Below, one piece after another: positions 8,234 to 23,908 of a stretch of DNA of 32,000 bases. The translations under genes and the position numbers were made by a program. This DNA is from a virus. The stretch spans positions 73,877 to 105,876 of IMG/VR virus record IMGVR_UViG_3300037510_000657, one strand, 5' to 3'. Numbering within the stretch: the stretch's first letter is position 1; each line of letters opens with the position of its first letter. Below the pieces are notes generated by a model. That model was given only the letters and a program-made list of their open reading frames with translations. It searched no databases and was not told the DNA's origin.

Positions 8234-8302
8234 CGCTCCACCCAGGAGTCGAACCTGGGACGCTTAGCTTAGAAGGCAGAGCTGAGTTCCGTCTCGTGGA
8301 GC
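8234..8302 (-). tRNA. Degenerate tRNA-like (loop CTTCTAA would be Arg-TCT)
   Basis: Acceptor GCTCCAC/GTGGAGC and T arm CCAGG-TTCGACT-CCTGG are perfect. The anticodon stem pairs only 3/5 and the D arm is short (69 nt). Confidence 0.4.
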
Positions 8303-10107: not shown

Positions 10108-10177
10108 TCGCGCACTAGGGAATCGCACCCTACCCGACCGGCTTATGAGACCGACGTACTCTCTAGAGTTGTGCGCG
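10108..10177 (-). tRNA. tRNA, anticodon CAT, reduced D arm
   Basis: Acceptor CGCGCAC/GTGCGCG, anticodon arm TCGGT-CTCATAA-GCCGG, T arm TAGGG-TGCGATT-CCCTA, D arm CTC-TAGA-GAG. 70 nt. Confidence 0.65.
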
Positions 10178-10721: not shown

Positions 10722-10794
10722 TCTCAGCGACGGGGCTCGAACCCGCATCTCTCCCCTTTCAGGGCACCACCGATGATCAGTCGATGGCGTCGAG
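10722..10794 (-). other. tRNA 3' half (anticodon loop CTGAAAG, Phe-GAA-like) with non-tRNA 5' part
   Basis: The 3' part CTGAAAG-GGGAG-AGAT-GCGGG-TTCGAGC-CCCGT-CGCTGAG-A is well formed. The upstream 35 nt gives no proper D arm or 5' anticodon strand. Confidence 0.45.
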
Positions 10795-10871
10795 CATCTG
10801 TTCCTTTCGGCCAGCGCTAGCCTGGGAAACAGAGACTCGCGGAGCGCTCTACCAGTTGAGCTACACCTCGG
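10795..10871 (-). other. tRNA 5' half (CGAGGTG-TA-GCTC-AACTGGTA-GAGC-G-CTCCG) followed by ~45 nt non-tRNA hairpins
   Basis: Acceptor strand, U8A9 and D arm are perfect. No matching T arm or 3' acceptor follows before the next element. Confidence 0.45.
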
Positions 10872-10942
10872 AGCTCCTGGAGGGAGTCGAACCCTCGTTT
10901 CACCCGTACCAAGGGTGTGGCCTACCATTGACCGACAGGAGC
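10872..10942 (-). tRNA. tRNA-Thr (GGT)
   Basis: Acceptor GCTCCTG/CAGGAGC, D arm GGTC-AATGGTA-GGCC, anticodon arm CACCC-TTGGTAC-GGGTG, T arm GAGGG-TTCGACT-CCCTC. Confidence 0.85.
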
Positions 10943-10976
10943 AAGGACCGCGCTCTACCGTTGAGCTACCCGCCAG
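10943..10976 (-). other. tRNA 5' half ending in the anticodon loop
   Basis: TGGCGGG-TA-GCTC-AACGGTA-GAGC-G-CGGTC-CTT, followed immediately by G1 of tRNA-Thr. Confidence 0.55.
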
Positions 10977-10987
10977 ACTTTCGAATG

Positions 10988-11025
10988 GCCATCGGGAGGG
11001 AGTTGAACCCTCATCTCGGTCGACG
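10988..11025 (-). other. tRNA 3' half starting in the anticodon loop
   Basis: CGTC-GACCG-AGAT-GAGGG-TTCAACT-CCCTC-CCGATGG-CCA, starting right after the discriminator of tRNA-Ala. GACCG is the exact complement of CGGTC in the 5' half at 10943-10976. Confidence 0.55.
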
Positions 11026-11098
11026 TGGACAAGATGGGAATCGAACCCACCGCAGCCGCATTGCAAGTGCAGCTCGCCTCCTTGGAACATGCCTGCCC
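11026..11098 (-). tRNA. tRNA-Ala (TGC)
   Basis: Acceptor GGGCAGG/CTTGTCC with G3-U70, anticodon arm CTGCA-CTTGCAA-TGCGG, T arm GTGGG-TTCGATT-CCCAT, discriminator A. Confidence 0.8.
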
Positions 11099-11115: not shown

Positions 11116-11467
11116 TGGTGGACCCGGGGGGAGTCGAACCCCCGTCCAGAAAAACATCAGCTCAGAGCGCTACGTGCGTGTCCGTGAACCTCACGGCGGG
11201 TACTGCTTGGTGTCCCTGTTTCACGTCTCGGGACCCGACGAGGGCTCCCTCACCGAAGTGAGCGGCGCCTCCACCATCCAGCTTTCTGTTCCTAGGAGTG
11301 CTGGACACCCGACCTACTCTAGGCCGCAGCCTGGAGCGGGAGCGCAACATCGTTGTCGTTGGCGACAGCGTTCGCGTTTGTTTGTGGTCTTCTTTTTACG
11401 AGGCCTGATGACCAACCTCGGCACGCTCTCCGAACCTCAGAATCCCTGTCGAAACCTTTACGGGCCC
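11116..11467 (-). ncRNA. ssrA: tmRNA (SsrA), tag ANAVANDNDVALPLQAAA
   Basis: 5' GGGCCCGTAAAGGTTTCGACAGGGA..., GCCGAGG...GGCCTCGTAAAAAG as in bacterial tmRNAs. Tag frame runs from GCG (11375) to TAG (11319-11321). 3' end GGGGG-TTCGACT-CCCCC-CGGGTCC-A-CCA, with G3-U70 in the acceptor. Confidence 0.9.
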
Positions 11468-11474
11468 GTAAGCT

Positions 11475-12141
11475 TTACCAGACGCCTCGGACGTAGTCCT
11501 TGTAGCGCCAAGTCTTGTTGGTGATGTGGTCGTTGACCACTCCGTCCTGCGTGCGGATGGTGCGGCGCTTGTCGCCACGCATCCCGCTTCCCACCTGAGC
11601 TCGCCGGTCGGCTGCTCGGGTACCATGTACGAGGGCTTGCTTGGCCTCCCAGATCTTCGCCCTGAGAAGAGCGATGGCCGACTCCCGGTTGTGGTGCTGC
11701 GACCTTTCTCCCTCGCACCGGACCGTAAGGCCTGTGGGGATGTGCCTCATCTGCACCGCGCTGGACGTCTTGTTGCGGGCCTGTCCACCAGCTCCCGAGC
11801 CCTTGGTGGCCTGCCACTCGATGTCCGCCTCTCGTAGCACCACCTCGGTCTGAGAGGGCTCAGGGAGGACGGCTACGGTCACGGTGCTGGTCTGAACCCT
11901 TCCCCGCTTGTCGTTCGGGGGAACGCGTTGCCAGCGGTGGCCGCCCATCTCGTCCTTGAACGTCTCCTTGGCTTCCTTGCCCTCGACGTGGAACACCATC
12001 AGTCCGGGTCTGTCATCAAGGAGGTCGAGGCTAAAGACCCCTCCGCTGACAGAGTCTCGAGTACACGCCGAACTGCTCATAGACGAGCAGCTTGGCATCG
12101 TCGCCGCCTTCGGCTGCGCGAATCTCTACGATGACGCCCAT
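11475..12141 (-). CDS. Truncated class-I peptide chain release factor (RF1-like, lacks domain 1) requiring +1 programmed frameshift at CUU UAG
   Basis: ATG 12141 (GGAGG upstream) gives MGVIVEIRAAEGGDDAKLLVYEQFGVYSRLCQRRGL, then TAG at 12031-12033. The +1 frame (track ORF 11475..12098) continues SLDLLDD...HRWQRVPPNDKRGRVQTSTVTVAVLPE...GSGAGGQARNKTSSAVQMRHIPTG. The frameshift site reads GGAGG-GGU-CUU-UAG-C. Confidence 0.8.
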
Positions 12142-12699: not shown

Positions 12700-12771
12700 C
12701 ACCAGGGACAGGATTTGCACCTGCATTTCCGGGCGTAGTGCCCGACGACCTGAGAGTTAGTCGACCCCGGT
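12700..12771 (-). tRNA. tRNA with CTA (amber-reading) triplet at anticodon position, non-canonical loop CACTACG
   Basis: ACCGGGG-TC-GACT-AACTCTCA-GGTC-G-TCGGG-CACTACG-CCCGG-AAAT-GCAGG-TGCAAAT-CCTGT-CCCTGGT-G. All four stems pair, but A33 and C37 are atypical. Confidence 0.6.
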
Positions 12772-15316: not shown

Positions 15317-15351
15317 AAACGGGAGCGCTCTTCCGATTGAGCTAAAGCCCC
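15317..15351 (-). other. tRNA 5' half ending in the anticodon loop
   Basis: GGGGCTT-TA-GCTC-AATCGGAA-GAGC-G-CTCCC-GTTT, followed immediately by G1 of tRNA-Gly(TCC). Confidence 0.55.
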
Positions 15352-15384
15352 AGAAGGATGGCGGTCGCGAAACGCGTCCTTCCT

Positions 15385-15433
15385 TGGTTGGGCCCACGGG
15401 ACTCGAACCCGCATCTCTCCCTGATTCTTCCGG
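15385..15433 (-). other. tRNA 3' half (anticodon 3' strand to CCA) lying upstream of its matching 5' half
   Basis: CCGGAAGAATCA-GGGAG-AGAT-GCGGG-TTCGAGT-CCCGT-GGGCCCA-A-CCA. GGGAG complements CTCCC, and GGGCCCA pairs 6/7 with GGGGCTT of the 5' half at 15317-15351. The 33-nt linker folds as GAAGGA...TCCTTC. Confidence 0.55.
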
Positions 15434-16273: not shown

Positions 16274-17029
16274 TTACGCGTAGCTCGAAGCAGTGTCAAC
16301 TTCTTTTTTCGTGACCACCGGGCAGACCTGATTTCTGCCATTCGACTTCGCTACATAGAGCTGCATGTCCGCTCTTGCGATGGTGGTCATGAAGTCCTCA
16401 CCGTTCACTGTCTCCGCGGCCCCGATGGACACGGTGACCGTCTTGCCGTGCGCGTAGTCTACGTCTGCAACGGCATGGCGTAGCTTCTCACCGACGATGA
16501 CCGCGCCCTCGAGGTCCGTGTCCGGAAGGATGATGAGGATCTCCTCACCACCCCAGCGAACAGCGTGGTCGGTGATGCGGACGGTCGACTTCACCGTTGC
16601 GCAGACGGTCTTCAGGATCTCGTCGCCCATGTTGTGCCCGTACTCGTCGTTGACCCTCTTGAAGTAGTCGACGTCGAGCAGCAGGTACGAGAGCGCAGTT
16701 CTCGTCCGTCTGGTGCGAGAGACACAACGACTGATGACCTGCTCTCCGCCTCTGCGGTTGAGCAGGCTCGTGAGCGGGTCGCTGATGGCGGCCGCTTCGT
16801 AGGTCGAGAGGAGAGCCTTGAGCTCGCTCGTCTCCTTGGTGCGCTCCTTGTGGTCCAGAGCGATCTTGTGCCGAGGCACGATGTCCGCTCCGTACGCACG
16901 ATAGAGGCATGCTGCGACGACGGCTACCGCCATCGCTTCGCTCAACAGCCCGACCTGTTTCGCTTCCGCGATCCCTGCCGCTACCCCTGCAACCTGCAGG
17001 AGGAGGGCAGCGAGTATCAACCTGAACAT
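16274..17029 (-). CDS. GGDEF-domain diguanylate cyclase with N-terminal membrane anchor
   Basis: LLLDVDYFKRVNDEYGHNMGDEILK, RITD (I-site RxxD) 5 aa before GGEEI, SIGAA, ARADMQLYVAKSNGRNQV. Two hydrophobic N-terminal helices. GGAGGG precedes the ATG. Confidence 0.9.
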   Translation of the reverse strand: MFRLILAALLLQVAGVAAGIAEAKQVGLLSEAMAVAVVAACLYRAYGADIVPRHKIALDHKERTKETSELKALLSTYEAAAISDPLTSLLNRRGGEQVISRCVSRTRRTRTALSYLLLDVDYFKRVNDEYGHNMGDEILKTVCATVKSTVRITDHAVRWGGEEILIILPDTDLEGAVIVGEKLRHAVADVDYAHGKTVTVSIGAAETVNGEDFMTTIARADMQLYVAKSNGRNQVCPVVTKKEVDTASSYA

Positions 17030-18587: not shown

Positions 18588-18662
18588 TCGCGCGTAGCTC
18601 ATGTGGAAGAGCGCCCAGCGTAATGAACTGGGAGGTAGCGGGTTCGACCCCCGTCGCGCGAT
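18588..18662 (+). tRNA. Lone plus-strand tRNA-like gene with 9-nt anticodon loop (CGTAATGAA)
   Basis: TCGCGCG-TA-GCTC-ATGTGGAA-GAGC-G-CCCAG-CGTAATGAA-CTGGG-AGGTA-GCGGG-TTCGACC-CCCGT-CGCGCGA-T. All stems pair. If C-A closes the loop, the anticodon would be AAT. Confidence 0.6.
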
Positions 18663-18694
18663 CTGGGAGGGTCTGTGAAAACTGAAGAGGTGCT

Positions 18695-22474: not shown

Positions 22475-23908
22475 CTAGTAGCGGTTGTCGGTCTTGAACT
22501 CGACCAGGTACTGCAGGATGTGCTGCTGGATGTCGTAGACGATGAACTCGTTGTGGAGGAGGTAGCTGCCCTTCTCCCCCTGCACCGAGTGGTAGCCCGC
22601 GGGCGGCTTCGTCAGGTGGCTCTGCGAGTCCTTGTACTTCTTGATGGTCCCGAGTGCCACGTCGGCCACGAACATGAAGAACGTGTCGCCGTGAGCCCCT
22701 CGCCCGCCGCCGAAGCGCCCGAAGGCGTACTGCTCGGACTTGGAGCTCTGGTCGGCGAAGTAGAGGCCGTTGCCGAACATCGAGCCAGTGATGTAGACAC
22801 CGGGCGGCCTCATGAGCAGGCCGCTCTTGCAGATGCCCAGGATGTTCTGCGGCCCGGAGCCGTGGAACAGGGCCTGGACGTTGCCGGTCTCCTTCATGGT
22901 CTTGATATGCTTCTGCGTCTGGCCGCGCACGTTCACGCGCCAGACGTTCTTCACCTGCATCTTCCAGGTGTGGTGGGAGGAGCGGGAGGACTGCATGTAC
23001 TTCTCGACCTTCTGATACGAAGGATTGGTGTTCTCGAGGTACTCGTACTCGCAGCCGATCTCCTTGTACTTCTTCCCGATGTCCGTCGTGGCGAAGCCAC
23101 CGACCATGCCTTGGACGTCGGAGAGCAGCTTGAGGAGATCCTCCTTCTCGTCGAGGATGGTCGCGTTGTTCAGCGCCATCTTGTGCAGCCAGGCATCCAT
23201 GGCCGCGTCTCCGTCGCTCTTCTTCGGTCGAAGCCCCATCTCCTGGGGGATGGCCGAGTAGAACTTGTTGGAGAGCTGGAGGATGTCCGGGTGGATGGAG
23301 TCCTTCAGCTTCGGCTTGGAGTCGAGCATGGCCTGCACCTCCTGGAGGATGTGCCTGCCGTCCTCGATCTGGGTCAGCGTCAGGGTGCCGAGTGGGTTCT
23401 CCACGGTGGAGTTCAGCGTTCCCGACAGCTGGCTCTTCACGGCCTGCCCCGCCTCCGCGTAGAGGCGCTCGACGAGCTTGGACACGCTGTGGTGCAGCTT
23501 GACGTCGTCCTTGACGTCCTTCGTGTCCGAGACGACCTTGTCCTTCTTGATGTCGTCGGAGAGGATCTGGGCGTTGCCGACAGACGAGCCGACCTTGGTC
23601 GAGGCCATCTTCACCTCGACGTAGCCCTTGCGGGCGCTGGTCTTCTCGGCCTTCAGGGACTCGAACGCCTCGAGCAGCGAGGGCTCGTTCTGCGGCGGGA
23701 TGCGCTCCTCCTGGACACCCGAGGCGCCGACGCGCCCGTAGCAGGAGAAGAGCCTGAACTTCGTTCCGTCCTTCGAGACGTGTGCCTCGATCTGGTAGAA
23801 CTTGTTGTTCCCGCCGGTGAGGTCGGTCTTGTTGAGCGTGGCCGACTTGACGACGTTGTAGTCGTTGGGGAACTTGAACGTTCCCAGTGCTTGGGCTCCG
23901 AGCTTCAT
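22475..23908 (-). CDS. Poly(ADP-ribose) polymerase homologue (WGR + helical regulatory + catalytic domain, H-Y-E triad)
   Basis: WGR: NKFYQIEAHV...FSCYGRVGASG. Regulatory: NPLGTLTLTQIEDGRHILQEV. Catalytic: LFHGSGPQN (H), GNGLYFADQSSKSEQY (Y), YLLHNEFIVYD (E). Confidence 0.9.
   Translation of the reverse strand: MKLGAQALGTFKFPNDYNVVKSATLNKTDLTGGNNKFYQIEAHVSKDGTKFRLFSCYGRVGASGVQEERIPPQNEPSLLEAFESLKAEKTSARKGYVEVKMASTKVGSSVGNAQILSDDIKKDKVVSDTKDVKDDVKLHHSVSKLVERLYAEAGQAVKSQLSGTLNSTVENPLGTLTLTQIEDGRHILQEVQAMLDSKPKLKDSIHPDILQLSNKFYSAIPQEMGLRPKKSDGDAAMDAWLHKMALNNATILDEKEDLLKLLSDVQGMVGGFATTDIGKKYKEIGCEYEYLENTNPSYQKVEKYMQSSRSSHHTWKMQVKNVWRVNVRGQTQKHIKTMKETGNVQALFHGSGPQNILGICKSGLLMRPPGVYITGSMFGNGLYFADQSSKSEQYAFGRFGGGRGAHGDTFFMFVADVALGTIKKYKDSQSHLTKPPAGYHSVQGEKGSYLLHNEFIVYDIQQHILQYLVEFKTDNRY

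What the first reader, a model, noticed from the sequence alone, without database searches (positions are those of the whole stretch)
10943..11025. Second 3'-half-before-5'-half tRNA locus whose ends would close a perfect 7-nt anticodon loop (UCG, Arg)
The 83 nt between the discriminator of tRNA-Ala(TGC) and G1 of tRNA-Thr(GGT) read, on the minus strand: CGTC-GACCG-AGAT-[GAGGG-TTCAACT-CCCTC]-CCGATGG-CCA-TTCGAAAGTC-TGGCGGG-TA-[GCTC-AACGGTA-GAGC]-G-CGGTC-CTT.

The fragment ends are exactly where RNase P and 3' processing of the neighbouring tRNAs would cut. Joining those two ends gives CGGTC-CTTCGTC-GACCG. That is a 5-bp perfect stem with a 7-nt loop, U33, and anticodon TCG. TCG is the one Arg four-box anticodon I did not find elsewhere in the array.

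Weak points:
- The acceptor strands TGGCGGG and CCGATGG pair poorly (4/7).
- They become complementary only if ATGG is looped out (CCCG[ATGG]CCA).
- Position 37 would be U.
Basis: partly seen in the sequence, partly recalled or inferred. Interest (0 to 1): 0.75.

Follow-up and report, generated by a model that had tools for sequence, protein, structure and literature searches.

The report
Permuted tRNA look-alike in phage array
The 83 bases wedged between two phage tRNA genes do fold like a tRNA written in rotated order, but they look like a tRNA mimic of the Y-RNA (YrlA) type, not a split arginine tRNA gene waiting to be ligated.

Summary
Window 10943-11025 (minus strand) lies exactly between A73 of tRNA-Ala(TGC) and G1 of tRNA-Thr(GGT). 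It reads tail, GACCG, T arm, acceptor-like region with CCA, D arm, CGGTC, tail. An identical copy exists in an independent assembly.

The decoding-tRNA reading is weak:
- The acceptor pairs 4/7 in the canonical register, which is chance level. All 287 comparison tRNAs have at least 5/7.
- Position 37 is T, seen in 2.5% of those tRNAs.
- Position 20 is T, whereas 24 of 30 phage tRNA-Arg have A20, including all three in this array.
- ARAGORN% of circularised chimeras of unrelated tRNA halves, so its call on the circle means little.
- No RNA ligase was found in the 32 kb.

The same rotated layout fills tRNA-to-tRNA gaps in other phage arrays. There the joined "loops" would be 4, 6, 8 and 14 nt. 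It is also the core of bona fide YrlA RNAs next to Ro60 genes.

A covariance model built without this locus scores it 53.9 bits, above every tRNA-dimer junction (42.6 at most).

Best reading: a YrlA-type tRNA mimic without a Ro60-binding module, released by processing of its neighbours. A decaying rearrangement relic remains a serious rival. No diverged orthologue was found.

The parts
11022..11025 (-). 5' tail CGTC, directly after A73 of tRNA-Ala(TGC)
   Evidence: Sequence. Unpaired in the minimum-free-energy fold.
11017..11021 (-). Terminal stem, 5' strand GACCG. It corresponds to tRNA positions 39-43.
   Evidence: Pairs 5/5 Watson-Crick with 10946-10950. Chance is 0.55% among chimeric tRNA halves. 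Recovered by the minimum-free-energy fold and by model R1.
11013..11016 (-). Variable region AGAT. Its T could form an A15-U48 Levitt pair.
   Evidence: Sequence. The same AGAT precedes the T stem in W_A, and GAGAT in W_C.
10996..11012 (-). T arm GAGGG-TTCAACT-CCCTC
   Evidence: Perfect 5-bp stem with a canonical T loop. Aligned by R1.
10969..10995 (-). Acceptor-like region CCGATGG-CCA-TTCGAAAGTC-TGGCGGG. The strands pair poorly unless ATGG is bulged out or the register is shifted. CCA lies at 10986-10988.
   Evidence: 4/7 pairs in the canonical register, 6/7 shifted. The minimum-free-energy fold uses GCCA/TGGC. R1 aligns only 2 bp here.
10952..10968 (-). TA plus D arm GCTC-AACGGTA-GAGC, with G18G19 followed by T rather than A
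   Evidence: Matches the Rfam YrlA consensus GUAGCUCAa..GGUAGAGC. R1 alignment. A20 test.
10946..10951 (-). G26 plus terminal stem 3' strand CGGTC. It corresponds to tRNA positions 27-31.
   Evidence: Pairs with 11017-11021.
10943..10945 (-). 3' tail CTT, directly before G1 of tRNA-Thr(GGT)
   Evidence: Sequence. Thr boundary.
11026..11098 (-). Upstream neighbour tRNA-Ala(TGC). CCA is not encoded. Its 3' processing would define the 5' end of the element.
   Evidence: Rfam 24.4 bits. Matches annotated phage tRNA-Ala genes by blastn. G3:U70 seen by inspection.
10870..10942 (-). Downstream neighbour tRNA-Thr(GGT). RNase P cleavage at its G1 would define the 3' end of the element.
   Evidence: ARAGORN and Rfam 60.8 bits.
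15317..15431 (-). Sister element W_A with the same rotated layout, between tRNA-Lys(TTT) and tRNA-Gly(TCC). It has GGGCCCA-A-CCA, a 32-nt hairpin linker, and tails of 10 and 4 nt.
   Evidence: 69.6 bits; it was in the training set.

Best explanation
The 83 nt are a circularly permuted tRNA-like element. They have the architecture of the tRNA-mimic domain of bacterial and phage YrlA Y RNAs.

Layout: a short terminal stem stands where the anticodon stem would be. It encloses a T arm, an acceptor-like hairpin region and a D arm. The Ro60-binding module is missing.

Proposed mechanism (all of this paragraph is inferred):
- The element is transcribed as part of the polycistronic tRNA array.
- It is released passively, when RNase P cuts at G1 of tRNA-Thr and the 3' end of tRNA-Ala is matured.
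- It folds into a tRNA-like L shape through the D-loop/T-loop elbow.
- It acts, if it acts at all, as a tRNA look-alike for a factor that recognises tRNA shape. Candidates are RNase P, the CCA-adding enzyme, modification enzymes, or a host or phage tRNA-binding protein.
- Its internal G-CCA followed by a 10-nt linker may let RNase P open it into a two-piece, CCA-ended mimic, as is documented for Mycobacterium smegmatis YrlA.
- It does not decode codons.

Shown here: the sequence, the boundaries, the architecture, membership of the structural class, and the poor fit to tRNA-Arg.

Inferred: transcription, processing, folding in vivo, and any function.
For: Layout matches YrlA:
- The Rfam YrlA model has the same order (T arm, closed acceptor hairpin, D arm). 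It gives weak hits at this locus and at sister locus W_A.
- The literature describes YrlA as resembling circularly permuted tRNAs with closed acceptor stems. [quoted passage not shown]

Membership of the structural class:
- Covariance model R1 was built from five other elements, without this locus.
- R1 scores 10946-11021 at 53.9 bits. That is above all tRNA-dimer junctions in about 206 kb of phage arrays (42.6 at most).
- It ranks beside bona fide YrlA elements: L009 55.7, L012 45.1, L016 44.6. Those three sit directly upstream of TROVE/Ro60 genes.

Sister elements flush between tRNAs occur in other phage arrays:
- W_A in this window, two in L002, and one in L010.
- Their terminal stems are 5-6 bp and their tails sum to 4-14 nt.

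Structure is conserved across the class:
- 94.7% of cells pair.
- 17 of 21 pairs change on both sides.
- 0 of 500 shuffles reach the observed values.

Intact core:
- The tRNA core bases are present: U8, A14, A15-U48, G18G19, T54-A58, G53-C61 (sequence).
- All three non-pairs of the element fall in the acceptor helix. By my own combinatorics, 35/1330 = 0.026 under random decay.

NCCA need not mean a decoding tRNA:
- NCCA follows the acceptor 3' strand in W_A (ACCA) and in L022 (TCCA).
- L022 also has an extended outer stem beyond the terminal stem.

No promoter-like or terminator-like site interrupts the minus strand around the locus.
Against: - Rfam's own YrlA model gives only 24.8 bits against a gathering score of 69, and it aligned the T arm of tRNA-Ala rather than the element's own.
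- There is no GNCGAAN0-1G motif and no long terminal stem.
- There is no TROVE gene in the 32 kb.
- The acceptor-like hairpin, well formed in every other class member, is the weak part here.
- The fold energy is no better than shuffled sequence.
- No diverged orthologue was found, so nothing shows selection on this particular copy.
- R1 rests on five sequences. Its score is driven largely by T-arm and D-arm sequence that any tRNA shares.
- No function is known even for the tRNA-like domain of true YrlA.
Confidence: 0.5

Rival explanations
1. Non-functional relic. Partial tandem duplication or recombination between neighbouring tRNA genes left the 3' half of one copy and the 5' half of the next. 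Processing of the neighbours discards the piece.
For: - L032 shows a plausible intermediate. A tRNA-Asn-like gene has its T arm and 3' acceptor strand followed by GAAA and a second 5' half.
- The acceptor strands of this locus pair at chance level.
- There is no thermodynamic signal.
- No orthologue shows conservation.
- The array holds several other degenerate or odd tRNA-like pieces.
- The ScoobyDoobyDoo array has an orphan T arm in a gap.
Against: - 14 of 14 pairs in the terminal stem, T stem and D stem are intact, and so are all tRNA core bases. Every non-pair sits in one helix, which can still form 7 bp with a 4-nt bulge.
- Two independent deletions would have to stop just outside both strands of one stem without damaging either neighbour.
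- The same compact layout recurs flush between tRNAs in unrelated arrays, with GNRA-capped and covarying acceptor hairpins.
Confidence: 0.27
2. One reading: a true circularly permuted tRNA-Arg(UCG) gene. The piece is excised by RNase Z or RNase P action on the neighbours. An RNA ligase joins its 5'-phosphate and 3'-OH ends in the anticodon loop. RNase P and 3' trimming then remove the TTCGAAAGTC linker.
For: - Joining the ends gives a 5-bp perfect stem, a 7-nt loop and U33.
- G-CCA follows the acceptor 3' strand in the shifted register, and many tRNAs of this array encode CCA.
- ARAGORN calls tRNA-Arg(tcg) on the circle.
- Contigs L007 and L020, related through the release-factor-like protein, carry canonical Arg(TCG) genes, whereas this array has none.
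- The predicted ends suit an Rnl1-type ligase, which is known to seal anticodon loops (established knowledge).
Against: - T replaces A20.
- Position 37 is T.
- The acceptor pairs 4/7, or else the T stem has only 4 bp.
- There is no similarity to Arg(TCG) genes.
- ARAGORN has a 16% false-call rate on chimeric circles.
- Sister elements would close to loops of 4, 6, 8 and 14 nt.
- CGA codons can already be read by tRNA-Arg(ACG).
- No ligase was found in the window. The 'RNA ligase A' annotation in phage Mx1 is not backed by Pfam or PHROGs.
- No permuted tRNA has been reported in bacteria or phages in the searched literature.
Confidence: 0.07
3. A genuine Y RNA that works with a Ro60 (Rsr) protein encoded elsewhere in the phage or in the host, using a minimal stem.
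For: - The distant relative Myxococcus phage Mx1 has, inside its tRNA array, a YrlA-like element with a 5' GCCGAATG motif that fits GNCGAAN0-1G.
- Phage YrlA/Ro60 pairs exist in L009, L012 and L016.
Against: - There is no room for a Ro60-binding stem or motif between the two tRNAs.
- No TROVE domain was found in the window.
- No TROVE domain was found in the Mx1 VWA-domain protein beside its tRNA array.
- No TROVE gene lies within 6 kb of the L022 element.
Confidence: 0.08

Closest known systems
YrlA (Y RNA-like, Rfam RF02553): the tRNA-like domain of bacterial and phage Y RNAs
   Same: - The order of parts is the same: stem, variable region, T arm, acceptor-like stem-loop, D arm, stem.
- The D arm GUAGCUCAA..GGUAGAGCG is nearly identical to the family consensus.
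- The tRNA core bases are kept.
- It lies next to tRNA genes.
- The literature describes YrlA as resembling a circularly permuted tRNA.
   Different: - There is no Ro60-binding module: no GNCGAAN0-1G motif and no long terminal helix.
- There is no Ro60 gene nearby.
- The Rfam score is far below the gathering threshold.
- The element is flush between two tRNAs.
- The acceptor-like hairpin is irregular and contains CCA.
Mycobacterium smegmatis YrlA, which is cleaved by RNase P and receives CCA
   Same: - A seven-position acceptor-like stem followed by a loop that RNase P could open.
- A CCA end on the fragment that corresponds to the tRNA 3' half (PMC4201824).
   Different: - There CCA is added after cleavage. 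Here it is templated.
- That RNA still carries the Ro60 module and is bound by Rsr.
- Cleavage has not been tested here.
Circularly permuted tRNA genes of Cyanidioschyzon merolae and other algae, and of one archaeon (recalled from memory: Soma et al. 2007; Chan et al. 2011)
   Same: - The 3' half lies upstream of the 5' half with a short linker.
- The junction falls in the anticodon loop in some cases.
- Maturation needs RNase P and 3' trimming at the linker.
   Different: - Those precursors circularise through a bulge-helix-bulge motif, cut by the splicing endonuclease, which bacteria lack.
- Their joined products are fully canonical tRNAs with detected mature forms.
- Here the acceptor stem and the Arg identity bases fail.
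Stable RNAs of unknown function in the phage T4 tRNA cluster, species 1 and 2 (recalled from memory)
   Same: Small non-tRNA RNAs co-transcribed with phage tRNAs and released by the same processing enzymes.
   Different: No sequence or structural comparison was made here. This is an analogy only.
Two-piece (permuted) tmRNA genes
   Same: A tRNA-like domain encoded in rotated order, with an internal CCA end exposed by processing. One such gene is present in L014.
   Different: The tmRNA of this window is the standard one-piece form, at 11116-11467. The element has no tag reading frame.

Membership tests
Functional tRNA-Arg (bacterial type) | Seven-pair acceptor stem together with a five-pair T stem | tested here: not met
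   4/7 pairs in the canonical register. 6/7 pairs only with a 4-bp T stem. All 287 array tRNAs have at least 5/7.
Functional tRNA-Arg (bacterial type) | A20 in the D loop, the main ArgRS identity element (established knowledge) | tested here: not met
   The D loop AACGGTA has T after GG. 24 of 30 phage tRNA-Arg have A there, including all three in this window and both Arg(tcg) genes of L007 and L020.
Functional tRNA-Arg (bacterial type) | Seven-nt anticodon loop with U33 and a purine at position 37 | tested here: inconclusive
   The loop length and U33 are met only after a hypothetical ligation. Position 37 is T, as in 7 of 283 tRNAs.
Circularly permuted tRNA gene (Cyanidioschyzon type) | 3' half upstream of the 5' half, with a linker between the acceptor ends | tested here: met
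   Sequence order and ARAGORN on the circularised gap.
Circularly permuted tRNA gene (Cyanidioschyzon type) | Leader and trailer form a bulge-helix-bulge motif for the splicing endonuclease | tested here: not met
   The flanks are the acceptor strands of tRNA-Ala and tRNA-Thr. Only 4-nt and 3-nt tails lie outside the stem. Bacteria lack this endonuclease (established knowledge).
Circularly permuted tRNA gene (Cyanidioschyzon type) | A mature, joined tRNA is detected | not testable with these tools
   No RNA data are available.
Circularly permuted tRNA gene (Cyanidioschyzon type) | A ligase able to join the ends is encoded or available | tested here: inconclusive
   No ligase domain was found in the window ORFs by Pfam or PHROGs. 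The rest of the roughly 106-kb contig was not available.
YrlA / Y RNA-like (RF02553) | tRNA-like domain in the order T arm, acceptor stem-loop, D arm, with conserved T and D sequences | tested here: met
   R1, built without this locus, scores it 53.9 bits. That is above all tRNA-dimer junctions and beside the YrlA elements adjacent to Ro60 genes.
YrlA / Y RNA-like (RF02553) | Reaches Rfam's gathering score | tested here: not met
   24.8 bits against 69, and Rfam's alignment borrowed the T arm of tRNA-Ala.
YrlA / Y RNA-like (RF02553) | Ro60-binding module: GNCGAAN0-1G near the 5' end and a long helix formed by the two ends | tested here: not met
   The 5' end reads CGTCGACCG. Only 5 bp lie between two tRNAs. 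Definition from PMC4201824.
YrlA / Y RNA-like (RF02553) | Encoded within about 4 kb of a Ro60/TROVE gene on the same strand | tested here: not met
   No TROVE hit in any sizeable ORF of the 32-kb window. Within 4 kb of the locus the only ORFs with family hits are an HNH endonuclease and a short release-factor-like protein.

The most novel reading that the evidence does not exclude
The piece would be excised by the processing of its neighbours, sealed in the anticodon loop by an Rnl-type RNA ligase encoded outside the window or supplied by the host, and then opened at the acceptor end by RNase P to give a CCA-ended tRNA. This would be the first permuted tRNA outside eukaryotic algae and archaea. 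It would use a pathway that needs no splicing endonuclease.
Probability: 0.06. Interest if true: 0.9.

Novelty: new variant of a known kind. Interest (0 to 1): 0.45.

Why it matters
If the best reading holds, phage tRNA arrays carry more than tRNAs and tmRNA. They also carry compact tRNA mimics that have shed the Ro60-binding half of a Y RNA and are released by the tRNA-processing machinery.

- Earlier YrlA surveys discarded hits that overlapped tandem tRNA genes (PMC4201824). Array-embedded copies would therefore have been missed.
- Such elements would give a simple system for asking what the tRNA-like half of YrlA does on its own. Its partner is still unknown.
- For annotation, gap-filling pieces in tRNA arrays should not be called split tRNA genes because ARAGORN accepts a circularised sequence. 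ARAGORN accepted 16% of chimeric controls here.

Tried and rejected
Searches for a diverged orthologue of the locus all failed:
- megablast and blastn against 50,697 phage records gave only generic tRNA and tmRNA matches.
- A protein-anchored scan of IMG/VR and of JGI metagenomes with the adjacent release-factor-like protein found nothing.
- DNA pattern scans of metagenome and GTDB contigs returned one tandem tRNA pair (on two contigs) and one planctomycete element with the YrlA layout.
- Eight look-ups of contigs encoding homologues of the release-factor-like protein found no synteny. The only copy of the locus itself is 100% identical.
- As a result, no covariation test on this locus was possible.

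Other leads that led nowhere or were rejected:
- ARAGORN on the circularised gap was rejected as evidence after the chimera control.
- Thermodynamic stability gave no signal.
- Specific similarity of the joined sequence to Arg(TCG) genes, or to any one tRNA: none.
- Paralogy among W_A, W_B and W_C: suggestive, but no stronger than similarity to ordinary tRNAs.
- The 'RNA ligase A' annotation in phage Mx1 is not backed by Pfam or PHROGs.
- The tRNA array of Mycobacterium phage ScoobyDoobyDoo has no element above the dimer background.
- A Ro60 gene next to the planctomycete element L038 was not detected.
- An attachment-site remnant and a permuted tmRNA piece were considered and dropped. I saw no integrase among the scanned window ORFs, there is no tag reading frame, and the tmRNA is one-piece.

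Full report
**Setting.** The window is GC-rich (62%) phage-like DNA. It encodes rIIA-like and rIIB-like proteins, ThyX, dCTP deaminase, a Dam methylase, a PARP-like protein and a NUDIX protein. Its only recognisable cultured relative is Myxococcus phage Mx1, and the relation is distant. On the minus strand, between about 8.1 and 16.0 kb, lies an array of 35 ARAGORN tRNAs, several further Rfam-only tRNAs and a one-piece tmRNA. No promoter-like or terminator-like site interrupts the minus strand near the finding. Co-transcription is therefore plausible, but it is inferred.

**Observation.** The quoted sequence is correct.
- The locus starts one base after A73 of a tRNA-Ala(TGC) with G3:U70 and no encoded CCA. 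It ends one base before G1 of tRNA-Thr(GGT).
- It reads CGTC, GACCG, AGAT, a perfect T arm, CCGATGG-CCA-TTCGAAAGTC-TGGCGGG, TA, a perfect D arm, G, CGGTC, CTT.
- The minimum-free-energy fold recovers the terminal stem, T arm and D arm. Its energy is no better than shuffled sequence (z = +0.28).
- A contig from an unrelated run (L019) is 100% identical over 4.2 kb, so the arrangement is not an assembly error.

**Is it more than chance?** I took 287 tRNAs from this window and from other phage arrays and recombined the halves of different tRNAs.
- A 5/5 Watson-Crick anticodon stem arises in 0.55% of combinations, so the two halves here belong together.
- The acceptor strands pair 4/7 in the canonical register. 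That is the chance median region, and it is worse than every real tRNA. A shifted register gives 6/7 but leaves a 4-bp T stem.
- All three non-pairs of the element lie in that one helix, while 14 of 14 pairs elsewhere are intact. By my own count, random decay would give this 2.6% of the time. The region can also form 7 bp with ATGG bulged out.

**Test of the tRNA-Arg reading.**
- ARAGORN calls tRNA-Arg(tcg) on the circularised gap. It also of 124 circles made from the 3' part of one real tRNA and the 5' part of its unrelated neighbour. The call is therefore weak evidence.
- The base after G18G19 is T. In 24 of 30 phage tRNA-Arg it is A, including all three Arg tRNAs of this array and both canonical Arg(TCG) genes of L007 and L020.
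- Position 37 would be T, as in 2.5% of tRNAs.
- The joined sequence resembles no Arg(TCG) gene in particular.
- CGA codons (5.2 per 1000) can be read by the array's tRNA-Arg(ACG) after inosine formation (established knowledge).
- No RNA ligase domain was found in the window. The rest of the genome is not available.

**What else has this shape?**
- Rfam's YrlA model (RF02553) gave weak hits here and at 15327-15415. Its consensus has the same rotated order.
[quoted passage not shown] It also states that M. smegmatis YrlA is cut by RNase P and receives CCA.
- Circularising every tRNA-to-tRNA gap in the fetched loci found the same layout at window 15317-15431 (W_A), at L002 7061-7132 and 7210-7299, and at L010 4285-4384.
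- In those four, joining the ends would give loops of 14, 4, 8 and 6 nt. Their acceptor hairpins are closed by a GTAA loop or by longer hairpins. The 7-nt loop at the finding is one value in this spread.

**Membership test.**
- A covariance model (R1) was built from W_A, the two L002 elements, the L010 element and the Mx1 element, without the finding.
- It scored 10946-11021 at 53.9 bits.
- Every junction of two ordinary tRNAs scored 42.6 or less.
- Bona fide YrlA elements scored 55.7 (L009), 45.1 and 42.7 (L012) and 44.6 (L016). They lie directly upstream of TROVE/Ro60 genes.
- New elements turned up in L022 (53.7 bits, with T-CCA after the acceptor 3' strand and an extended outer stem) and in L032 (64.4 bits).
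- Across 12 aligned elements, 94.7% of cells pair and 17 of 21 pairs change on both sides. Slid and shuffled controls fall far below. The alignment was fitted to the model, which favours it.
- The finding is the outlier in one respect: only 2 bp of its acceptor hairpin align.

**Why it is not simply YrlA.** Four defining features fail:
- There is no GNCGAAN0-1G motif.
- There is no long helix formed by the two ends.
- There is no Ro60 gene within 4 kb, or anywhere in the 32 kb.
- The Rfam score is far below threshold.

By contrast, Mx1 has a YrlA-like element in its array with a 5' GCCGAATG motif.

**Mechanism.**
- Most likely (0.5), the piece is a tRNA mimic without a Ro60 module. It would be released by RNase P at Thr G1 and by 3' maturation of tRNA-Ala, and it would fold through the D/T elbow.
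- Its G-CCA and 10-nt linker, like ACCA in W_A and TCCA in L022, suggest RNase P may open it into a two-piece CCA-ended form. This is inferred by analogy with M. smegmatis YrlA.
- A relic of partial tandem duplication is the main rival (0.27). L032 looks like an intermediate: a tRNA followed by a second 5' half.
- A true permuted tRNA-Arg is unlikely (about 0.07). A Y RNA serving a distant Ro60 gene is also unlikely (about 0.08).

**Limits.**
- No diverged orthologue was found despite searches of phage records, IMG/VR, JGI metagenomes, GTDB genomes and contigs carrying homologues of the neighbouring release-factor-like protein.
- Conservation of this copy, its expression and its ends are therefore untested.

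Noticed in passing
window 15317-15431 (-): A second permuted tRNA-like element (W_A) lies between tRNA-Lys(TTT) and tRNA-Gly(TCC). It has a T arm, GGGCCCA-A-CCA, a 32-nt hairpin linker, TGGGGCT, a D arm and the terminal stem GGGAG/CTCCC. Joining its ends would give a 14-16 nt loop, so it is not a decoding tRNA either.
   Followed up: partly
window 10722-10870 (-): A tRNA-like gene in normal order with an 86-nt structured insert where the anticodon loop should be (Rfam tRNA 27.4 bits, two acceptor mismatches). The insert contains a 7-bp hairpin with the loop CTGATCA. A similar insert-bearing tRNA-like piece follows tRNA-Leu(CAA) in L005 and L018.
   Followed up: partly
window 11475-12098 (-): A short (207 aa) PCRF/RF-1 domain protein is encoded directly upstream of the tmRNA. 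About 8000 homologues have E < 1e-20. Those whose contigs I read lie among phage-type genes. This looks like a widespread phage-borne release-factor or ribosome-rescue-like family.
   Followed up: partly
window about 10108-10177 (-) and about 8234-8302 (-): By eye, two non-canonical tRNAs missed by ARAGORN, both with degenerate D arms. One has the anticodon loop CTCATAA (CAT), the other CTTCTAA (TCT). There is also an orphan T arm at 12708-12724, in the 81-nt gap between tRNA-Asp and tRNA-Phe.
   Followed up: no
L007 7367-7724 (+): A full-length bacterial class A RNase P RNA (260.6 bits) sits inside the tRNA array of an IMG/VR viral contig. The same contig also encodes a homologue of the short release-factor-like protein.
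   Followed up: no
L032 5802-5935 (-): A tRNA-Asn(GTT)-like gene has its T arm and 3' acceptor strand followed by a GAAA loop and a second 5' half (acceptor strand, D arm, CTTTA). The T arm is thus shared by a normal-order and a permuted fold. This is a possible evolutionary intermediate for permuted elements.
   Followed up: partly
L022 6435-6506 (-): A YrlA-like element carries T-CCA right after the acceptor 3' strand, a 7-bp perfect acceptor hairpin and an extended outer stem (CCAGAGC/GCTCTGG). No TROVE gene was called within 6 kb.
   Followed up: partly
L001 (Myxococcus phage Mx1) 9451-9579 (-): An unannotated YrlA-like element with a 5' GCCGAATG motif lies inside the Mx1 tRNA array (Rfam YrlA 32 bits, R1 64 bits; it was in the R1 training set). 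The annotated 'RNA ligase A' (89 aa) nearby has no Pfam or PHROGs support.
   Followed up: partly
window 18588-18663 (+): A lone tRNA-Ile(AAT) is called on the opposite strand, outside the array. The anticodon is unusual for bacteria.
   Followed up: no
window 22475-23908 (-) and 16274-17029 (-): A phage-borne PARP-like protein (WGR, PARP regulatory and PARP catalytic domains) and a GGDEF diguanylate cyclase flank the translation-related region.
   Followed up: no
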